Of a stretch of DNA of 15,506 nt, positions 3,858 through 9,308 are shown piece after piece; the stretch's first letter is position 1, and each line of letters starts with the position of its first letter. The translations under genes were made by a program, and so were the position numbers. Source of the stretch: a virus (Duplodnaviria > Heunggongvirae > Uroviricota > Caudoviricetes); IMG/VR virus record IMGVR_UViG_2703718798_000014, positions 1 to 15,506 of that record. One strand, given 5' to 3'. The notes beneath the pieces were generated by a model that did not search any database, was not told the origin of the DNA, and saw nothing but the letters and a program-made list of their open reading frames with translations.

Positions 3858-4157
3858 ATGAGAACGTATTTATCTGGCTTGACTGCCAGCGGTTATGCAC
3901 ATCCAAAAATTATCCCCGGCGCTATTTATCGGGATAAGAACGGCAACAGAGTAACAGTAAAATCGATAATGTTTGACCGTGTGTATTTTATTCGTGATGG
4001 CTATTCATTTCATAGCTCGCTGAACGTGGAGATCTTTATTTGCAGATTCCGGCGGGAAATTCCGCCTTCCAGAAATAACCATGTGTCATGTATGGATGTT
4101 GATAAAAAACTACAGGAACTGAAAAACATGATTGCCGCGTGGAGAGAGCAGAAATGA
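3858..4157 (+). CDS. Hypothetical protein (99 aa)
   Basis: ATG 3858 with GGGGA RBS; stop overlaps primase start (ATGA). Confidence 0.5.
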   Translation: MRTYLSGLTASGYAHPKIIPGAIYRDKNGNRVTVKSIMFDRVYFIRDGYSFHSSLNVEIFICRFRREIPPSRNNHVSCMDVDKKLQELKNMIAAWREQK

Positions 4158-5971
4158 AAAAAGCGCCAAATTTAAAACACCAGCCACGTGACAAAATGAC
4201 GGAAGTCATCATTTTTGCGGGTAGTGATGCGTGGGCACATGCGAAGCAGTGGCAGGAACAGGACGGGCGACTGGCTGGCGATAACGTGCCACCTGTCTGG
4301 CTTGGAGAGCAACAACTTGCCGAACTGGACAACCTGCAAATCGTACCGGACGGACGCTATCGCGTGCGTCTCTATCAGGCGGGGTTATTGCGTTCGGGGC
4401 TTGTTAATACCATCGGGCAGAAACTGGCAGCGGCAGGTGTCAGGGATGCTGATTATTACCCTGAAGGAATGCACAGCCAGAAACGGGAGAACTGGCGCGA
4501 ATATCTGGAACGTGAGCGGGGAGATCTGACGGAAAAGAAAAAGGTAGTTGAACTGCCTGTAAAGAAAAAAGAGCGGGTAAAAGACGATAACGCTTCATCA
4601 CTGGCGCTTAACCAGATGGGAGCAAGTCAACGCGGCGAAGTTCTCCTGGCACATTATGGCGGTGAACTGGCGATTAATGCTGACTCTGACACTGTTCACC
4701 ATTACAACGGCGTTGTATGGGAGCCAGTACAGGATAAAGAATTACAGCGAGCTATGGCACAGATTTTCATTGATGCGGAGATCAGCTATTCGCAGAACGC
4801 CATTAAATCGGCGGTCGATACCATGAAGTTAAGTTTGCCTGTAATGGGGAATACAGCCCGTAACCTGATTGGATTCAGTAACGGGGTATTTGATACCCGT
4901 ACAGGTGATTTCCGTGAACACGATAAAAATGACTGGCTGTTAATTGCCAGTGAGTTACCGTTCACTCCACCAGCAGAAGGTGAAACGCTGGCAACACATG
5001 CGCCGAATTTCTGGAAGTGGTTACGCCGTTCGGTGGCTGAGAATGACCGCAAGGCAGATCGCGTTCTGGCAGCGTTATTTATGGTGCTGGCGAACCGGTA
5101 CGACTGGCAGTTATTCATTGAGGTAACAGGTCCAGGGGGAAGTGGTAAAAGCGTGATGGCGGAGATTTGCACCATGCTGGCGGGTAAGGCCAACACAGTA
5201 TCGGCAAGCATGAAGGCGCTGGAAGATGCAAGGGAACGCGCGTTAGTGGTTGGCTTTTCGCTGATTATCATGCCGGATATGACCCGCTACGCTGGTGATG
5301 GGGCAGGAATTAAGGCCATTACAGGCGGTGACAAGGTGGCAATTGACCCGAAACACAAAGCCCCCTACTCAACGCGTATTCCGGCAGTAGTGCTGGCGGT
5401 TAACAATAACGCCATGTCATTCAGTGACCGCAGCGGGGGGATCTCGCGCCGTCGGGTGATATTCAATTTTTCGGAAGTTGTACCGGAGAACGAACGCGAT
5501 TCAATGCTGGCGGAAAAAATAGAAGGTGAGCTGGCGGTAGTGATTCGTCATCTGCTTACACGGTTTGCTGACCAGGACGAAGCCAGACGCCTTTTATATG
5601 AGCAGCAGAAATCAGAAGAAGCACTCGCGATAAAGCGTGAAGGTGATTCGCTGGTGGACTTCTGCGGCTATCTCATGGCGTCGGTAATGTGTGATGGCCT
5701 GTTAGTGGGTAATGCTGAAATTGTGCCATTCAGCCCGCGCAGGTATCTCTATCATGCCTATCTGGCTTATATGAAGGCACATGGGTTTGGTAAACCTGTA
5801 ACACTGACGCGCTTCGGTAAAGATATGCCGGGGGCAATGGCGGAATATGGCAGGGAGTATATGAAACGGAAAACGAAGCACGGTTTGCGTTCAAACGTGA
5901 CACTGACGGAGGAATCAGAAGACTGGATGCCGTCATGTGTATCGGTCACTAATGACGATAGCAAAAATTAA
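4154..5971 (+). CDS. DNA primase/helicase, P4-family (SF3 helicase-type NTPase)
   Basis: 605 aa from ATG 4154 (GGAGAG RBS 7 nt upstream; the track start 4139 is an upstream GTG). Walker A GPGGSGKS in ...FIEVTGPGGSGKSVMAEI...; Walker B-like LIIMPD. Followed directly by an iteron array of the P4 ori type. Confidence 0.85.
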   Translation: MKKAPNLKHQPRDKMTEVIIFAGSDAWAHAKQWQEQDGRLAGDNVPPVWLGEQQLAELDNLQIVPDGRYRVRLYQAGLLRSGLVNTIGQKLAAAGVRDADYYPEGMHSQKRENWREYLERERGDLTEKKKVVELPVKKKERVKDDNASSLALNQMGASQRGEVLLAHYGGELAINADSDTVHHYNGVVWEPVQDKELQRAMAQIFIDAEISYSQNAIKSAVDTMKLSLPVMGNTARNLIGFSNGVFDTRTGDFREHDKNDWLLIASELPFTPPAEGETLATHAPNFWKWLRRSVAENDRKADRVLAALFMVLANRYDWQLFIEVTGPGGSGKSVMAEICTMLAGKANTVSASMKALEDARERALVVGFSLIIMPDMTRYAGDGAGIKAITGGDKVAIDPKHKAPYSTRIPAVVLAVNNNAMSFSDRSGGISRRRVIFNFSEVVPENERDSMLAEKIEGELAVVIRHLLTRFADQDEARRLLYEQQKSEEALAIKREGDSLVDFCGYLMASVMCDGLLVGNAEIVPFSPRRYLYHAYLAYMKAHGFGKPVTLTRFGKDMPGAMAEYGREYMKRKTKHGLRSNVTLTEESEDWMPSCVSVTNDDSKN

Positions 5972-5984
5972 ACTTATGGAATAA

Positions 5985-6213
5985 CTGTTCACCACTGTTC
6001 ACCCTGTCATAAATATCTTTTATATCAGTATATTATAGGGTGAACAGTTATTTATGAACTGTTCACCAAACTATTCACTGTTCACCTTTTTGATTGTTTA
6101 TTGAGCTTCAAGGGTGAACAGTGGTGAACAGTTGGTGAATAGTTTTTGTGAAACTGTTCACCCCTTAACATTATGAATTAAAAGATAAAATATCAAAAGG
6201 TGAACAGGTGAAG
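5985..6213. repeat. Replication origin: at least 9 exact copies of the octamer core TGTTCACC / GGTGAACA in both orientations (plus degenerate copies), flanking an AT-rich segment
   Basis: Direct (CTGTTCACC) at 5985, 5995, 6059, 6078, 6154, with degenerate 6071. Inverted (GGTGAACAG) at 6039, 6113, 6123, 6199, with degenerate 6134 and 6208. AT-rich 6010-6038. Octamer matches the P4 ori/crr type I iteron as I recall it. Confidence 0.75.
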
Positions 6214-6258
6214 GGTTAAAACGCAAAAATTTTAATTTACTGCTGTGAGATAAAGCCT

Positions 6259-6504
6259 ATGACAGCGAAGCACACAAAAAAATCACAATCGCACGCCCTT
6301 GATTTGACGGAACACTGGTTAAGGGTGTCGATAAAAATCATCGACCGCAACGCCGGGGAAGGATATGCGAAAGCACATCCCGAACTGATTAGCGCATTCA
6401 TGACAACGGCAGCTGCAAACTTTGCCACGCTGACAGAACGGGAGATTGCCGAAGCGGAACAGGTAACAACCATCAACGTTAAAACCGGAGAGGTGGAATC
6501 ATGA
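6259..6504 (+). CDS. Hypothetical protein (81 aa)
   Basis: First ORF after ori; no clear RBS; stop overlaps next start. Confidence 0.45.
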   Translation: MTAKHTKKSQSHALDLTEHWLRVSIKIIDRNAGEGYAKAHPELISAFMTTAAANFATLTEREIAEAEQVTTINVKTGEVES

Positions 6505-6806
6505 GCGAACCAAAATTTGGTGAAAAATTTTACAAGCACAACGGACGGATCACGATTCTGCAAATAAGCGCAGCTACACCAGGCTGGTGGGTTGAAACAG
6601 ACGAAGGATCCTCACCTGTGGCATCATGGGCGCTTTGTGTGCTTAGTTACCCTGACCGCGATGTGTATCAGGATATTCTGCCTGTGATATCCACTGACAA
6701 AGGCATGAAACCCGTAGACATCAAAAACATGGGTTTTCAGTGTGTAATGCTCACTGAAAAAATGATGGAAGAGATGAAAAAGAACAACGCCGGATCGCTT
6801 CACTGA
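6501..6806 (+). CDS. Hypothetical protein (101 aa)
   Basis: GGAGAGGTGG RBS; ATGA overlap with previous gene. Confidence 0.55.
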   Translation: MSEPKFGEKFYKHNGRITILQISAATPGWWVETDEGSSPVASWALCVLSYPDRDVYQDILPVISTDKGMKPVDIKNMGFQCVMLTEKMMEEMKKNNAGSLH

Positions 6807-6815
6807 GGTGGCAAT

Positions 6816-7226
6816 ATGACAGCACAAATTGCAGCTTACGGGCGGCTGGTGGACGACCCGCAGGTAAAACAGACCAGTAAGGGCACACCGATGACGCTGG
6901 CGCGTATGGCGGTATCGTTGCCATGTAGTCAGGCGCAGGATGGGCAGGCGACGTTATGGCTATCGGTCATCGCATTTGGTAAGCAGGCCGACTTCCTGGC
7001 TAAACATCAAAAAGGCGACGTTGCCAGCGTATCCGGCACGATGCAGGTCAGCCAGTGGACCGGACAGAACGGGGAAACGCGGCAGGGTTATCAGGTTATT
7101 GCAGACAGCGTAATCAGTGCCCGTGCGGCACGTCCTGGCGGGAACAGACGCAAAACCACAGGCACACAGGGTAATCAGCCACCAGCGGGAGGCGATGACC
7201 CTTACGGTGACGGTATTCCGTTCTGA
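6816..7226 (+). CDS. ssb: Single-stranded DNA-binding protein (OB-fold, SSB family) with short C-terminal ...DDPYGDGIPF tail
   Basis: GAGGTGG RBS. N-terminal YGRLVDDPQV...; core WLSVIAFGKQADFLAKHQKGDVASVSGTMQVSQWTGQNGETRQ aligns by eye with E. coli SSB (W..V..FGK.A....KG......G....WT...G); C-terminal GIPF resembles the DIPF tip. Confidence 0.75.
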   Translation: MTAQIAAYGRLVDDPQVKQTSKGTPMTLARMAVSLPCSQAQDGQATLWLSVIAFGKQADFLAKHQKGDVASVSGTMQVSQWTGQNGETRQGYQVIADSVISARAARPGGNRRKTTGTQGNQPPAGGDDPYGDGIPF

Positions 7227-7236
7227 GGGGGTGGCG

Positions 7237-7509
7237 ATGGTACATGACCGCATAGCGGAAGAACTCGAGGCGAAAGGCTTTTACCGGAGGGCGGCGGCGC
7301 GATGGGGTGAAGTCATGCTGCTGGTGGAGACAGACAAGGAACGGCATCAGGTTACGATGCGACGGCTGGAATGTTCCAGGAAGGCACAGAAGCCACCGGA
7401 GCCGCCGGATAACTTCGGAGACCTGAGAAAGGCAGTAGATCGCACTTATGCTGAAATGGGTATAGATGGTGTAAGCGATGAAATATGGCGTAATTACCCA
7501 GACAGCTAA
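7237..7509 (+). CDS. Hypothetical small protein (91 aa); possibly PerC-like regulator (tentative)
   Basis: ATG 7237 with GAGGGGG RBS (the track start 7117 is an upstream extension overlapping ssb). Motif EELEAKGFYRRAAARWGEVM resembles my recollection of PerC-family proteins; unverified. Confidence 0.5.
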   Translation: MVHDRIAEELEAKGFYRRAAARWGEVMLLVETDKERHQVTMRRLECSRKAQKPPEPPDNFGDLRKAVDRTYAEMGIDGVSDEIWRNYPDS

Positions 7510-7514
7510 TCAAC

Positions 7515-7538
7515 AGCCGGAGAAATCCGGCTTTTTTT
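7515..7538 (+). terminator. Rho-independent terminator (stem AGCCGGA / TCCGGCT, GAAA loop, T7 run)
   Basis: Perfect 7-bp stem 7515-7521 / 7526-7532, tetraloop GAAA, then TTTTTTT; directly after the stop of the 7237-7509 gene. Confidence 0.65.
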
Positions 7539-7633
7539 GCACCAGTTGAAACGGTATGGCGCATTACCGGGTTTTCGTCACGGTCAGGCATAGTTACTAT
7601 CTGAAACAAACAGACACAACAGAGGAAAAAACA

Positions 7634-7858
7634 ATGCCGATGAAATTTGATGAGATATTAAAACAGCGTGATAAATACCATGCTGACAACATGGAGACGA
7701 TGAGCATCAATGATTACCGCGCATTCCTGGAGACGGGCGCACTGATTGAAAAGGATCAGCATGGTTTTGTGAGATGTGCTCTGTCCGGTGAAATGCTGGC
7801 GGTAAATCCTGAACAGATAGATGCATTGATAGAATTTCTGAAAGGGATCAGGGACTGA
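7634..7858 (+). CDS. Hypothetical protein (74 aa)
   Basis: ATG 7634 with AGAGGA RBS 7 nt upstream (the track start 7556 is an upstream extension). Flanked by two near-identical terminators. Confidence 0.5.
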   Translation: MPMKFDEILKQRDKYHADNMETMSINDYRAFLETGALIEKDQHGFVRCALSGEMLAVNPEQIDALIEFLKGIRD

Positions 7859-7868
7859 GCACGCATAC

Positions 7869-7890
7869 AGCCGGAGCAATCCGGCTTTTT
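7869..7890 (+). terminator. Rho-independent terminator (same stem AGCCGGA / TCCGGCT, GCAA loop, T5 run)
   Basis: Stem 7869-7875 / 7880-7886 identical to the 7515 terminator; T-run follows. Confidence 0.6.
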
Positions 7891-7909
7891 GTCATTTTTT
7901 GTAAATTAT

Positions 7910-8001: not shown

Positions 8002-8049
8002 CTGGGGCCACTTTCCCGCCTGTTAATGTGCTCGCCAATATTCATTACC
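8002..8049. promoter_or_regulatory. Long inverted repeat (11-bp perfect arms TTTCCCGCCTG / CAGGCGGGAAA, 26-bp spacer) in the capsid-operon leader
   Basis: Arms 8002-8012 and 8039-8049 are exact reverse complements. Confidence 0.35.
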
Positions 8050-8112
8050 AGGCGGGAAAACGATCGGTGCGATTGCTGATTTCCTTATGAAAAACGGTTG
8101 AGTTTTTGCCGC

Positions 8113-8150
8113 GTCCTGGAGTTCCTTACTTAACCCCAGGACTTTTTTTT
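8113..8150 (+). terminator. Intrinsic-terminator-like hairpin plus T8 run ending at the capsid start codon (candidate attenuator or antitermination target)
   Basis: Stem TCCTGGAGTT (8114-8123) pairs with AACCCCAGGA (8132-8141) with one mismatch; T8 at 8143-8150; ATG at 8151. No Shine-Dalgarno can fit between hairpin and ATG. Confidence 0.5.
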
Positions 8151-9308
8151 ATGCCGAGAATAATCGAATTACGCCAGCAGAAAACCGCCATTAAAAATCA
8201 GATGCGCGACATGCTGGAGAACGCGGAAAAAGAAAACCGCAGCCTTAACGATGCAGAGGGCGCAAAATTTGACGAATTACGCGCTAAAGCTGAATCCCTC
8301 GATAAAGACATTTCCCGCCTTGAAGCCATTGCAGACGAAGAGCGCAGCAAGCCAGGTAAAAGCAGCCAGACCACTGACCCGGCAGAACTCCGCAACTACA
8401 TCCTGACAGGTGAAACCCGCGCATTAAGTACAGGCGTTCCCGCTGATGGTGGTTATACCGTTATCCCCGAACTGAACACCGAAATCATGCGAATGCTGAC
8501 GGATGAATCCACCATGCGCCGCATCTGTACCGTGAAGAAAATCAGCAGCAACGAGTTTAAGCAGCTTGTTTCCGCTGGCGGTGCGACCGTTAACCACGGT
8601 GAAGAGGGTAAGACACGCGAACAGACCAGCACCCCGCAGATTAACGAGGTGAGCATTAAGCTGTATCCGGTCTATGCGTACCCGCGCACCACACAGGAAA
8701 TCGTGGATTTTTCCGATGTGGACATCCTTTCATGGCTGACGGGTGAGATTGGCGACACCTTCACGGAAACCGAAGAAAGCGATCTGGTTGTGGGCGACGG
8801 TGACAAAAAAGCAAAAGGTTTTTTATCCGTACCCCGTGCAGAGAAGAACGACAAAGAGCGTGATTTTGGTACGTTGCAGGTAATTAAACCTTCCGAATCT
8901 CTGGCGTGGACATCTGCGGACCCGCTGATCGACCTGAAATTTGCATTACGTAAAAAATACCGCAAAAACGCGGTCTGGGTGGTTAACTCCACGACGGCGG
9001 CAAAACTTCAGAAGGTGAAGAACGCGAACGGTGATTACATCTGGCGCGACCGTTTACAGGCTGGTGATCCTGATACGTTGCTGGGCCTTCCGGTCGAATA
9101 TCTGGAGTTTATGCCTGATAACGTTATTGCCCTGGGTGACTTCAAACGCGGTTACTACATTGTTGATCACGAAACAGGTGTTCGCACCAGACCGGACAAC
9201 CTCACAGAGCCGGGCTTCATCAAAATTTTCACGCAGAAATATTTAGGCGGTGGCGTGGTGGATTCGAACGCGATCAAGATTCTGGAACTGCCACAGGACG
9301 ACGATTAA
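8151..9308 (+). CDS. Major capsid protein, HK97 fold, with N-terminal delta (scaffold-like) domain
   Basis: 385 aa from ATG 8151 (the track start 8106 is an upstream TTG). N-terminal coiled-coil-like IELRQQKTAIKNQMRDMLENAEKENRSLNDAEGAKFDELRAKAESLDKDISRLEA; C-terminal half resembles HK97 gp5 by eye (...GDYIWRD...LLGLPVEY...GDFKRGYYIVDHETG...). Confidence 0.9.
   Translation: MPRIIELRQQKTAIKNQMRDMLENAEKENRSLNDAEGAKFDELRAKAESLDKDISRLEAIADEERSKPGKSSQTTDPAELRNYILTGETRALSTGVPADGGYTVIPELNTEIMRMLTDESTMRRICTVKKISSNEFKQLVSAGGATVNHGEEGKTREQTSTPQINEVSIKLYPVYAYPRTTQEIVDFSDVDILSWLTGEIGDTFTETEESDLVVGDGDKKAKGFLSVPRAEKNDKERDFGTLQVIKPSESLAWTSADPLIDLKFALRKKYRKNAVWVVNSTTAAKLQKVKNANGDYIWRDRLQAGDPDTLLGLPVEYLEFMPDNVIALGDFKRGYYIVDHETGVRTRPDNLTEPGFIKIFTQKYLGGGVVDSNAIKILELPQDDD

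What the first reader, a model, noticed from the sequence alone, without database searches (positions are those of the whole stretch)
6259..7858. Accessory block of five small genes, including an SSB, bracketed by twin terminators
Between ori and the head operon lie two overlapping hypotheticals, an SSB with an abbreviated C-terminal tip (..GDGIPF instead of DDDIPF), a possible PerC-like regulator, and a 74-aa gene enclosed by two terminators with identical stems (7515-7538 and 7869-7890). In satellites this position usually holds helper-interference, anti-defence or defence cargo. The altered SSB tip could change host-partner interactions or matter for defence systems that sense phage SSBs.
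Basis: inference. Interest (0 to 1): 0.5.

Follow-up and report, generated by a model that had tools for sequence, protein, structure and literature searches.

The report
Conserved SSB–PchE module of an E. coli satellite
The five small genes are the standard middle section of a known E. coli phage satellite (the Sakai Sp7 / EcCIEDL933 type): its SSB and its PerC-like regulator (the studied gene pchE) are already known, and only two tiny insert genes of unknown function, one sitting between duplicated terminators, are still open.

Summary
In detail: five co-oriented ORFs, a 4-nt overlap between the first two, an SSB ending GDGIPF, a PerC-family gene, and a 74-aa gene between two terminators that share a 24-nt repeat (23/24 identical).

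The window is a capsid-forming PICI. Its SSB, PerC-like protein and 74-aa protein are 100% identical to ECs1587, ECs1588 (PchE) and ECs1589 of E. coli O157:H7 Sakai prophage Sp7 (OI-51/CP-933C). PchE has been studied experimentally.

o1–SSB–PerC is a conserved scaffold, not variable cargo. It matches 1899 of 5426 complete E. coli genomes and sits next to several replication modules and two unrelated capsid modules.

The SSB tip is a single allelic substitution. The family consensus is GDDIPF, and position −4 varies (D/N/G/S/E).

The variable parts are:
- o2 (101 aa), in 82 genomes, inserted exactly at the o1-stop/SSB-start junction.
- The o5 cassette (terminator–o5–terminator). It is absent from otherwise intact relatives that carry a single hybrid terminator.

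o5 is acidic and has no recognisable fold. It precedes a capsid module in all 58 viral-contig loci examined. No gene matches a known defence family.

This is ordinary and largely known. The functions of o5 and o2 remain open.

The parts
5985..6207 (.). Iteron replication origin (context, left border of the block)
   Evidence: 10 copies of CTGTTCACC (at most 1 mismatch) in both orientations here. 13 matches in the whole window against about 3 expected by chance; 0 of 200 shuffles reach 13. Repeat families. The interval 5972-6258 is 33% GC.
6259..6504 (+). o1, 81-aa conserved small protein (phrog_1231), function unknown; always directly upstream of the SSB
   Evidence: phrog_1231 E=5e-50. No Pfam, NCBIfam, PADLOC or PDB hit. 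Residues 13-81 are nearly invariant across PICIs with three different replicases. Its stop overlaps the next start (ATGA).
6501..6806 (+). o2, 101-aa rare insert gene (phrog_27268), function unknown
   Evidence: Found in 82 of 5426 E. coli genomes. Only 8 protein clusters, all E. coli. Absent from 50,697 phage records. Inserted exactly at the o1-stop/SSB-start junction, with GAGGTGG..ATGA duplicated at both ends. AlphaFold2 pLDDT 48, so the model is unusable.
6816..7226 (+). Single-stranded DNA-binding protein, 136 aa, identical to Sakai ECs1587
   Evidence: PF00436 E=4e-17; TIGR00621 above its cut-off. 100% identical to ECs1587. 26% identical to E. coli SSB, with the W54, F60 and W88 equivalents kept. 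Tip is GDGIPF against a family consensus of GDDIPF.
7237..7509 (+). pchE, PerC-family regulator (group 3 Pch), 90 aa
   Evidence: PF06069 E=3e-45, full length. 90/90 identical to Sakai ECs_1588, annotated pchE. Literature: PMC6265319, PMC7369912, PMC3378721.
7513..7538 (+). Intrinsic terminator T1 (end of the o1-SSB-pchE transcription unit); left copy of the 24-nt repeat
   Evidence: 7-bp stem, GAAA loop, T7 tail. -12.6 kcal/mol, z=-3.9. Repeat D6.
7572..7600 (+). Weak sigma-70-like promoter candidate for o5 (TTTTCG-17-TACTAT)
   Evidence: Only 7 of 12 consensus matches, so inferred, not shown. The whole 7540-7862 cassette interior is at least 90% identical in 539 genomes.
7634..7858 (+). o5, 74-aa acidic protein (phrog_1957), identical to Sakai ECs1589; present/absent cassette gene
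   Evidence: 100% identical to ECs1589. Absent from the cf-PICI in L021, which has a single hybrid terminator instead. Only 21 relatives at E<=1e-3 among 1.84 billion representative proteins. AlphaFold2 pLDDT 86.6, with no PDB or BFVD fold match. pI 4.9. Precedes a capsid module in 58 of 58 IMG/VR loci.
7867..7890 (+). Intrinsic terminator T2; right copy of the 24-nt repeat and right junction of the o5 cassette
   Evidence: 7-bp stem, GCAA loop, T5GT tail. -14.4 kcal/mol. BLAST matches to other PICI types break exactly here.
7897..7909 (+). Conserved 13-mer TTTTGTAAATTAT at the start of the capsid-operon leader (outside the finding, right border)
   Evidence: Exact in cf-PICIs of E. coli, Shigella, Rosenbergiella and Erwinia, although the surrounding intergenic DNA has diverged.
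8113..8150 (+). Third terminator-like hairpin plus U8, directly abutting the capsid start codon (8151)
   Evidence: -14.1 kcal/mol, z=-3.7. No Shine-Dalgarno between it and the ATG.

Best explanation
The region is the conserved middle module of AlpA-type E. coli phage-inducible chromosomal islands. Here it sits in a capsid-forming PICI of the EcCIEDL933 / Sakai Sp7 / OI-51 kind. It consists of two transcription units.

**Unit 1: o1-(o2)-SSB-pchE.** This is the tightly packed, probably translationally coupled tail of the rightward operon that runs through pri-rep and the iteron origin. It ends at intrinsic terminator T1.
- The SSB most likely coats the single-stranded DNA made when the island's Pri-Rep unwinds the origin. 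Through its ...D-x-IPF tip it would recruit host replication proteins. (Inferred.)
- PchE is a PerC-family regulator that acts on host genes. Overexpression represses csgD and curli and raises flagellar expression, and it has little effect on LEE. (Shown by others.)
- o2 is a rare gene inserted in-frame-neutral at the o1/SSB junction.

**Unit 2: a moron-like cassette.** It has a weak promoter, o5, and a second copy of the same terminator. It is gained or lost by recombination at the duplicated terminator, which is why the two stems are identical.
- o5 is a small acidic protein that travels with capsid-encoding satellites.
- I infer that it works by binding another protein, either of the helper or of the satellite's morphogenesis pathway, rather than binding DNA. 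Its target is unknown.
For: **Identity with the known element**
- SSB, PchE and o5 are 100% identical to ECs1587, ECs1588 and ECs1589.
- The window has int, alpA, pri-rep, an iteron ori and an HK97-type capsid/protease/portal/HNH/terS/terL set.

**Scaffold conservation**
- SSB+PerC DNA matches 1899 of 5426 genomes, with up to 7 copies per genome.
- The same o1-SSB-PerC(-o5) set lies beside pri-rep, RepA-helicase and DUF927 replicases. It also lies beside both HK97-type and lambda-like capsid modules.
- The o1 core is nearly invariant across these contexts.

**Cassette**
- L021 has PerC, one terminator, then the capsid gene. Its junction is the T1 left flank joined to the T2 right flank.
- BLAST matches break at window 7864 and 7890.
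- The loop variants GAAA and GCAA swap between the two copies in different elements.
- The terminators fold well.

**o2 junction**
- The duplicated GAGGTGG..ATGA is shown.

**SSB**
- OB-fold hits and conserved aromatic residues.
- The IPF tip is conserved in the family, apart from a few variant or truncated sequences.

**PchE function**
- PMC6265319 and PMC7369912. PMC11773190 and PMC5931665 report little or no effect on LEE1.

**Expression**
- ECs1586, ECs1588, ECs1589 and ECs1590 are detectably transcribed without a helper and fall after SOS induction. ECs1589 has FDR 0.

**o5**
- The family is uniformly acidic.
- It precedes a capsid module in 58 of 58 loci.
Against: - No experiment links the SSB to island replication. 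It is missing from related cf-PICIs of Citrobacter, Erwinia and Gilliamella and from 17 IMG/VR loci. It is mostly deleted in a Shigella copy. So it is dispensable, or its role is replaced by the host SSB.
- His55 of E. coli SSB is Leu here.
- The PchE phenotypes come from plasmid overexpression. Its role in the satellite's own life cycle is untested.
- The o5 promoter is only a 7/12 consensus match, so autonomous transcription is not shown.
- The cassette could equally be ancestral and lost by recombination between the repeats, rather than inserted.
- o5 is absent from apparently intact elements (L021, L023, L025, L028), so it cannot be essential for capsid formation.
- Weak o5 relatives also occur beside Hcp/Tlde1 genes and beside an integrase.
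Confidence: 0.7

Rival explanations
1. One reading: the block is a cargo hotspot for helper interference, anti-defence or defence. On this view the SSB tip is adapted to change partner binding or to evade or trigger SSB-sensing defence systems.
For: - The slots at o1|SSB, SSB|PerC and PerC|capsid hold different unknown genes in different elements.
- o5 and o2 are satellite-specific and absent from 50,697 phage records.
- o5 is small, acidic and has no fold match.
Against: - No PADLOC hit for any of the five genes, nor for five alternative slot genes.
- SSB, PchE and o1 are conserved scaffold, not variable.
- The tip differs from the family consensus by one residue, at a position that varies D/N/G/S/E among close alleles.
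- The cf-PICI prototype is reported not to interfere with its helper (10.1101/2022.09.08.507074).
Confidence: 0.15
2. The block is regulatory for the satellite's own late genes. PchE and/or o5 would control the capsid operon. T1, T2 and the hairpin-U8 in front of the capsid ATG would form a barrier that is read through only by an antitermination-competent polymerase. A candidate loader is the island's AlpA, since Pseudomonas aeruginosa AlpA is a processive antiterminator.
For: - Three terminator-like structures lie within 640 nt upstream of the capsid ATG.
- o5 always precedes a capsid module.
- PchE is always the last gene before the packaging side.
- A 13-mer is conserved at the start of the capsid leader across genera.
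- alpA is required for induction and transfer of EcCIEDL933 (10.1101/2022.09.08.507074).
- P. aeruginosa AlpA bypasses intrinsic terminators (PMC7969949, PMC9371919).
Against: - cf-PICIs lacking PerC (L006-L009 and 17 IMG/VR loci) or lacking o5 (L021, L025) keep the same capsid module, and several of them (L006, L008, L021) also keep the conserved 13-mer. So neither gene is a universal late regulator.
- o5 is acidic, which is atypical for a DNA-binding activator.
- The window's AlpA matches an 'AlpA family' structure (8c3t, E=3e-7) but gave no hit to the P. aeruginosa AlpA complexes.
- In EcCICFT073, AlpA was described as an activator (PMC6092414).
Confidence: 0.15
3. The block is decaying remnant DNA of a defective prophage, as OI-51/Sp7 was historically annotated, and the twin terminators are a chance resemblance.
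For: Sp7 is labelled 'untypable' in the Sakai record, and OI-51 was described as a degraded P4-like prophage (PMC3378721). One Shigella copy carries a deletion across SSB-PchE.
Against: - All five ORFs are intact and compactly arranged with ribosome-binding sites.
- The genes are at least 90% conserved in hundreds of genomes.
- EcCIEDL933 is experimentally mobilisable (10.1101/2022.09.08.507074).
- The 23/24 repeat recurs as the cassette junction in every E. coli-clade locus examined whose contig spans the site.
Confidence: 0.02

Closest known systems
E. coli O157:H7 Sakai prophage Sp7 = EDL933 O-island 51 / CP-933C = cf-PICI EcCIEDL933 (genes ECs1586-ECs1589)
   Same: Same gene order: rep, ori, small gene, SSB, pchE, 74-aa gene, HK97-type capsid. 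The SSB, PchE and 74-aa proteins are 100% identical, and the capsid is 100% identical.
   Different: - The window has a different integrase (66% identical) and a different pri-rep type.
- Its o1 N-terminus differs (74% identity overall).
- It carries the extra o2 gene, which Sp7 lacks.
- No complete E. coli genome covers more than 87% of the window, so this is a new mosaic of known modules.
PerC/Pch family regulators (EPEC PerC; EHEC PchA-C, PchD, PchE)
   Same: Full-length PF06069 match and identity with PchE.
   Different: - Unlike PerC and PchA-C, PchE barely activates LEE1/ler. It represses csgD/curli and raises flagellar genes when overexpressed (PMC6265319, PMC7369912, PMC5931665).
- A PICI-borne relative (EcCIMP1_025) represses LEE (PMC11773190).
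- There is a weak similarity to ANR-family anti-activators (E=0.002, below the cut-off).
Bacterial homotetrameric SSB (E. coli Ssb) and plasmid/phage SSBs
   Same: OB-fold, the W54/F60/W88 equivalents, a short disordered linker and a C-terminal ...D-x-I-P-F tip.
   Different: - Only 136 aa, with a linker of about 25 residues.
- A shorter L23 loop without W40, and Leu in place of His55.
- The tip has one Asp in the last six residues (GDGIPF) against three in DDDIPF. The family consensus is GDDIPF.
Phage morons (promoter-gene-terminator units inserted between conserved genes)
   Same: o5 is present or absent between the same neighbours, has its own downstream terminator, and is separated from the upstream operon by a terminator.
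   Different: - It sits in a satellite rather than a phage.
- The flanking terminators are duplicates of one another.
- The promoter is only weakly predicted.
- The gene is tied to capsid-encoding satellites rather than scattered.

Membership tests
Capsid-forming PICI (EcCIEDL933 type) | Integrase, alpA, pri-rep and an iteron ori, followed by its own capsid, protease, portal, connectors, HNH, terS and terL; no tail or lysis genes; about 15 kb | tested here: met
   ORF map and RefSeq annotation of near-identical loci. Iterons.
Capsid-forming PICI (EcCIEDL933 type) | Induction by a helper phage and packaging into small self-encoded capsids | not testable with these tools
   Shown only for EcCIEDL933 itself (10.1101/2022.09.08.507074).
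Bacterial SSB (PF00436 / TIGR00621) | OB-fold SSB domain above the curated thresholds | tested here: met
   PF00436 62.5 bits against 26; TIGR00621 57.7 against 53.95. 25 PDB SSB hits.
Bacterial SSB (PF00436 / TIGR00621) | Aromatic ssDNA-stacking residues (E. coli W54, F60, W88) | tested here: met
   Pairwise alignment places W48, F54 and W81 at those positions. W40 is absent because the loop is shorter.
Bacterial SSB (PF00436 / TIGR00621) | Acidic C-terminal tip ending in IPF that binds partner proteins | tested here: inconclusive
   IPF and one Asp are present (GDGIPF), with DD at -9/-10. Acidity is reduced. Family alleles carry D, N, G, S or E at -4. Partner binding was not tested.
PerC family (PF06069); Pch group 3 | Full-length match to the PerC model; identity with PchE | tested here: met
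   152.8 bits against 22.6, profile positions 1-89 of 90. 90/90 identical to ECs_1588 pchE.
PerC family (PF06069); Pch group 3 | Activation of the LEE1/ler promoter | not testable with these tools
   Literature reports a minimal effect for PchE (PMC5931665, PMC6265319, PMC11773190).
Moron-like cassette | Presence/absence polymorphism between the same conserved neighbours | tested here: met
   L021 lacks o5 and has one hybrid terminator. L022 and 41 IMG/VR loci carry it.
Moron-like cassette | Own terminator | tested here: met
   T2 stem-loop plus T tail, -14.4 kcal/mol.
Moron-like cassette | Own promoter, and expression from the quiescent element | tested here: inconclusive
   The best promoter candidate matches 7 of 12 consensus positions. 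Published RNA-seq detects ECs1589 transcripts without a helper, but gives no transcription start.
Known anti-phage defence systems (PADLOC-DB 2.0) | Match to any defence-system protein model | tested here: not met
   No hit at E<=1 for the five proteins, nor at E<=0.01 for five alternative slot genes from relatives.

The most novel reading that the evidence does not exclude
o5 (ECs1589 family) would be a new, satellite-specific small acidic effector expressed from its own cassette. It would bind a helper-phage or host protein. Examples of what it might do are steering tail supply or head-tail joining towards satellite capsids, or blocking a host defence. That would explain why it accompanies capsid-encoding PICIs of two unrelated capsid types and several genera. 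In addition, the o1|SSB junction would be a previously unrecognised in-operon cargo slot carrying orphan genes such as o2.
Probability: 0.25. Interest if true: 0.55.

Novelty: already known. Interest (0 to 1): 0.22.

Why it matters
- **Correct labelling.** A block that looks like mysterious satellite cargo is mostly a conserved, already annotated module. It includes the virulence-associated regulator pchE, and related copies are present in about a third of complete E. coli genomes.
- **pchE belongs to a satellite.** Placing pchE inside a mobilisable capsid-forming satellite, rather than a 'defective prophage', links two bodies of work: Pch regulation in EHEC, and PICI biology.
- **What is left to test.** The open questions reduce to two small genes (o5 and o2) and the leader of the capsid operon. 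These are cheap to test in the existing EcCIEDL933/HK106 system.

Tried and rejected
- **Sequence searches for o1, o2 and o5.** Pfam, NCBIfam, PADLOC and PDB gave nothing significant. The PHROG families they match are all of unknown function.
- **o2 structure.** pLDDT 48, not usable, so no fold search was run.
- **Rfam.** Only two sub-threshold miRNA-family matches, both in the iteron region.
- **Rep binding at the capsid leader.** I considered that Rep iterons recur in the capsid leader (GTTGTTCCACGTTGTTCAC). Rejected: no match to the iteron within 1 mismatch there.
- **o1 co-varying with the replicase.** Rejected: the o1 core is invariant across three replicase types.
- **PerC as universal late activator.** Rejected as universal, because PerC-less cf-PICIs keep the capsid module, and some of them (L006, L008) also keep the conserved 13-mer.
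- **'Hypothetical gene 1792'.** I tried to find out whether this gene, whose mutation reduces transfer in the cf-PICI paper, is o5. The text does not say and the figures are not held.
- **Contexts of three distant o5 relatives.** The contigs were short or the settings unrelated, so they were uninformative.
- **Profile-based locus search with the o5 alignment.** It failed for lack of a conserved stretch.
Full report
**What is in the window.** The 15.5-kb window encodes, all on the + strand:
- an integrase (680-1915) and an AlpA-type regulator (2324-2518);
- a DUF4222 protein (3858-4157) and a primase-helicase (4139-5971);
- an AT-rich origin with ten CTGTTCACC iterons (5985-6207);
- the five small genes of the finding;
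- an HK97-type capsid (from 8151), protease, portal, head-closure and connector proteins, HNH, terS and terL.

There are no tail or lysis genes. This is the architecture of a capsid-forming phage-inducible chromosomal island (cf-PICI; 10.1101/2022.09.08.507074).

**Checking the observation.**
- The ORFs are 6259-6504 (o1, 81 aa), 6501-6806 (o2, 101 aa, ATGA overlap with o1), 6816-7226 (SSB, 136 aa), 7237-7509 (90 aa) and 7634-7858 (o5, 74 aa).
- The SSB call is solid: PF00436 E=4e-17, TIGR00621 above its cut-off, and 25 solved SSBs hit.
- The 'possible PerC-like regulator' is a full-length PerC-family protein, E=3e-45.
- The two terminators (stems 7515-7532 and 7869-7886) lie inside a 24-nt direct repeat that is 23/24 identical. 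Both fold far better than shuffled controls.
- The SSB ends DDPYGDGIPF.

**Identity with a known element.** The annotated Sakai genome shows that prophage 'Sp7; untypable' has the same order: hypothetical, SSB, pchE, hypothetical, major head protein. Sp7 spans 1,594,711-1,610,171, between roxA and phoQ.
- The window's SSB, PerC-like protein and o5 are 100% identical to ECs1587, ECs1588 (PchE) and ECs1589.
- o1 is 74% identical to ECs1586, and the difference is confined to the N-terminus.
- Sp7 corresponds to O-island 51 / CP-933C. Flockhart et al. [quoted passage not shown] They also identified the DUF4222 protein ECs1581 as the T3S regulator RgdR.
- The same island type was later shown to be the prototype cf-PICI EcCIEDL933.
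- PchE (group 3 Pch) has been studied. On overexpression it represses csgD and curli and raises flagellar expression. It hardly affects ler/LEE1, and its transcript falls on SOS induction (PMC6265319, PMC7369912, PMC5931665; also PMC11773190).

**Scaffold versus cargo.** I tested whether the block is variable cargo by looking at relatives.

Counts in 5426 complete E. coli genomes:

| Query | Genomes with a match | Note |
|---|---|---|
| SSB+PerC DNA | 1899 | 763 cover at least 80% of the query; up to 7 copies per genome |
| o5 cassette interior | 539 | all at least 90% identical |
| o2 | 82 | |

Annotated loci and 58 IMG/VR loci show the same o1-SSB-PerC(-o5) set in many settings:
- next to at least three replicase types (pri-rep variants, RepA helicase, DUF927);
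- next to two unrelated morphogenesis modules (HK97-type cf-PICI, and a lambda-like capsid/decoration/terS set).

The o1 core (residues 13-81) is nearly invariant across these contexts. So o1, SSB and PerC form a conserved, exchangeable scaffold.

The variable parts are discrete slots:
- **o1|SSB junction:** o2 here, and an unrelated 248-aa gene in strain A19.
- **SSB|PerC junction:** ProQ/FinO and others.
- **PerC|capsid junction:** o5, or a minus-strand gene.

None of these slot genes, nor the five window proteins, matches a PADLOC defence model.

**The twin terminators.** BLAST matches to other elements break exactly at the terminators (window 7864 and 7890).
- A UPEC cf-PICI (L021) has PerC, one terminator and then the capsid leader, with no o5.
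- Its single terminator joins T1's left flank to T2's right flank.
- O157:H7 EC4115 carries T1-o5-T2 in front of a different, lambda-like capsid module.
- The GAAA and GCAA loop variants swap between the two copies in different elements.

The 'identical stems' are therefore the duplicated junctions of a present/absent cassette. Either the cassette was inserted carrying a terminator copy, or it is lost by recombination between the repeats. T1 ends the o1-SSB-pchE unit. o5 then has a 97-nt leader with only a weak promoter candidate (7/12), a good Shine-Dalgarno, and its own terminator. This is a moron-like layout. Published RNA-seq of an O157 strain without a helper detects ECs1589 transcripts, which fall on SOS induction with FDR 0.

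o2 is likewise a precise insertion. The o1-stop/SSB-start sequence GAGGTGGAATCATGA of o2-less elements is found at o2's 5' end, and a near copy (GAGGTGGCAATATGA) at its 3' end.

**The SSB tip.** Among the 120 closest cluster representatives, the last six residues are as follows:

| Tip | Representatives |
|---|---|
| GDDIPF | 67 |
| GDNIPF | 26 |
| SDDIPF | 6 |
| GDGIPF | 4 |

- The remainder are single variants or truncated sequences.
- The family consensus is DDPYGDDIPF.
- The window's allele, shared with Sakai, differs by one residue at a position that tolerates D, N, G, S and E. D(-5), I, P and F are conserved, apart from a few variant or truncated sequences.
- The tip is therefore not abbreviated and not specially derived.
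- Alignment with E. coli SSB (26% identity) keeps the W54, F60 and W88 equivalents. His55 is Leu and the W40 loop is shorter.
- The SSB is absent from cf-PICIs of Citrobacter, Erwinia and Gilliamella and from 17 IMG/VR loci. It is largely deleted in a Shigella copy.
- It is therefore helpful rather than essential. Its most likely role is support of island replication at the adjacent origin, which is an inference.

**o5.**
- An exhaustive HMMER search of 1.84 billion representatives finds only 21 relatives at E<=1e-3. The true relatives are proteins of about 50-106 aa (a 1383-aa repeat protein also matched and looks spurious). They share Y28, D41, H43, A56, Q61 and L69.
- The AlphaFold2 model is confident (pLDDT 86.6): three helices, a three-stranded sheet and a C-terminal helix.
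- The family is uniformly acidic, with net charge mostly -4 to -8. This argues against DNA binding.
- o5 is not found in 50,697 phage records.
- In all 58 IMG/VR loci it lies upstream of a capsid-containing module. In 17 loci of a non-E. coli clade, the order is replicase, o5, then HK97-type capsid, with no SSB, PerC or o1.
- It is nevertheless missing from apparently intact elements (L021, L023, L025, L028).
- My best guess is a non-essential, protein-binding accessory factor tied to satellites that build their own heads. Its target is unknown.

**o2.** It is confined to E. coli (8 clusters). It has no homologue in phage records, and its structure prediction failed (pLDDT 48). It occurs with either replicase type and either capsid type. 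This fits an independent cargo gene.

**Rival readings.**
- **Defence or interference cargo.** This remains possible for o2 and o5 only.
- **Regulation of the capsid operon.** The evidence for it:
  - a third hairpin-U8 abuts the capsid ATG (8113-8150, -14.1 kcal/mol);
  - a 13-mer (7897-7909) is conserved across four genera;
  - P. aeruginosa AlpA acts as an antiterminator (PMC7969949, PMC9371919).

  Against it: elements lacking PerC or o5 keep the same capsid module and, in L006, L008 and L021, the 13-mer. The window's AlpA gave no hit to the P. aeruginosa AlpA structures.
- **Decaying prophage junk.** This is contradicted by conservation and by the demonstrated mobility of EcCIEDL933.

**Verdict.** The block is an already annotated, partly characterised module of a known satellite family. 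No complete E. coli genome covers more than 87% of the window, so the window is a new mosaic of known modules. Interest is low (0.22). The residual value lies in o5, o2 and the capsid-operon leader.

Noticed in passing
window 7897-7909: The 13-mer TTTTGTAAATTAT, 7 nt after T2, is exactly conserved at the start of the capsid-operon leader in cf-PICIs of E. coli, Shigella, Rosenbergiella (L006 3928-3940) and Erwinia (L008 5776-5788). Their capsids are only 66-74% identical to the window's. It is a candidate operator or promoter element.
   Followed up: partly
window 8113-8150: A terminator-like hairpin (-14.1 kcal/mol) followed by U8 abuts the capsid start codon at 8151, with no Shine-Dalgarno. 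Together with T1 and T2 this makes three terminator-like signals in 640 nt, which hints at antitermination or unusual translation initiation.
   Followed up: partly
window 8012-8059: A 17-nt inverted repeat (94% complementary, -23.5 kcal/mol, z=-3.7) lies in the capsid leader. Its function is unknown.
   Followed up: no
window 3858-4157: A DUF4222 protein lies directly upstream of pri-rep. It is the positional homologue (31% identity) of Sakai ECs1581 = RgdR, a published regulator of type III secretion (PMC3378721).
   Followed up: partly
L005 5176-5352 (Shigella flexneri SFBU1023): A deletion joins the first 25 codons of the SSB to the C-terminal third of PchE in an otherwise conserved cf-PICI. 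o1, o2 and o5 are retained.
   Followed up: no
L007 5307-5717, minus strand (Citrobacter amalonaticus): A 136-aa protein made of 17-residue tandem repeats (..TSRQGTDGRV..) sits on the opposite strand between the o5 homologue and the capsid gene. It has no Pfam or PADLOC hit.
   Followed up: partly
window 7466-7594: In related genomes, RefSeq PGAP annotates a 42-aa 'hypothetical protein' or a 'trigger factor, frameshifted' pseudogene across the 3' end of pchE and terminator T1. This is probably spurious.
   Followed up: no
L022 (E. coli O157:H7 EC4115, 1536196-1548584): At the same roxA/phoQ attachment site as Sakai Sp7 there is a different PICI. It has a RepA helicase and a lambda-like capsid/decoration/terS module, but the same o1-SSB-PerC-T-o5-T block. 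This shows module exchange at one site within a single serotype.
   Followed up: partly
L024 4258-5004 and 5446-5991 (E. coli A19): The o1|SSB slot holds an unknown 248-aa gene, and a ProQ/FinO-family gene sits between SSB and PerC. A ProQ/FinO gene also follows the SSB in L026.
   Followed up: partly
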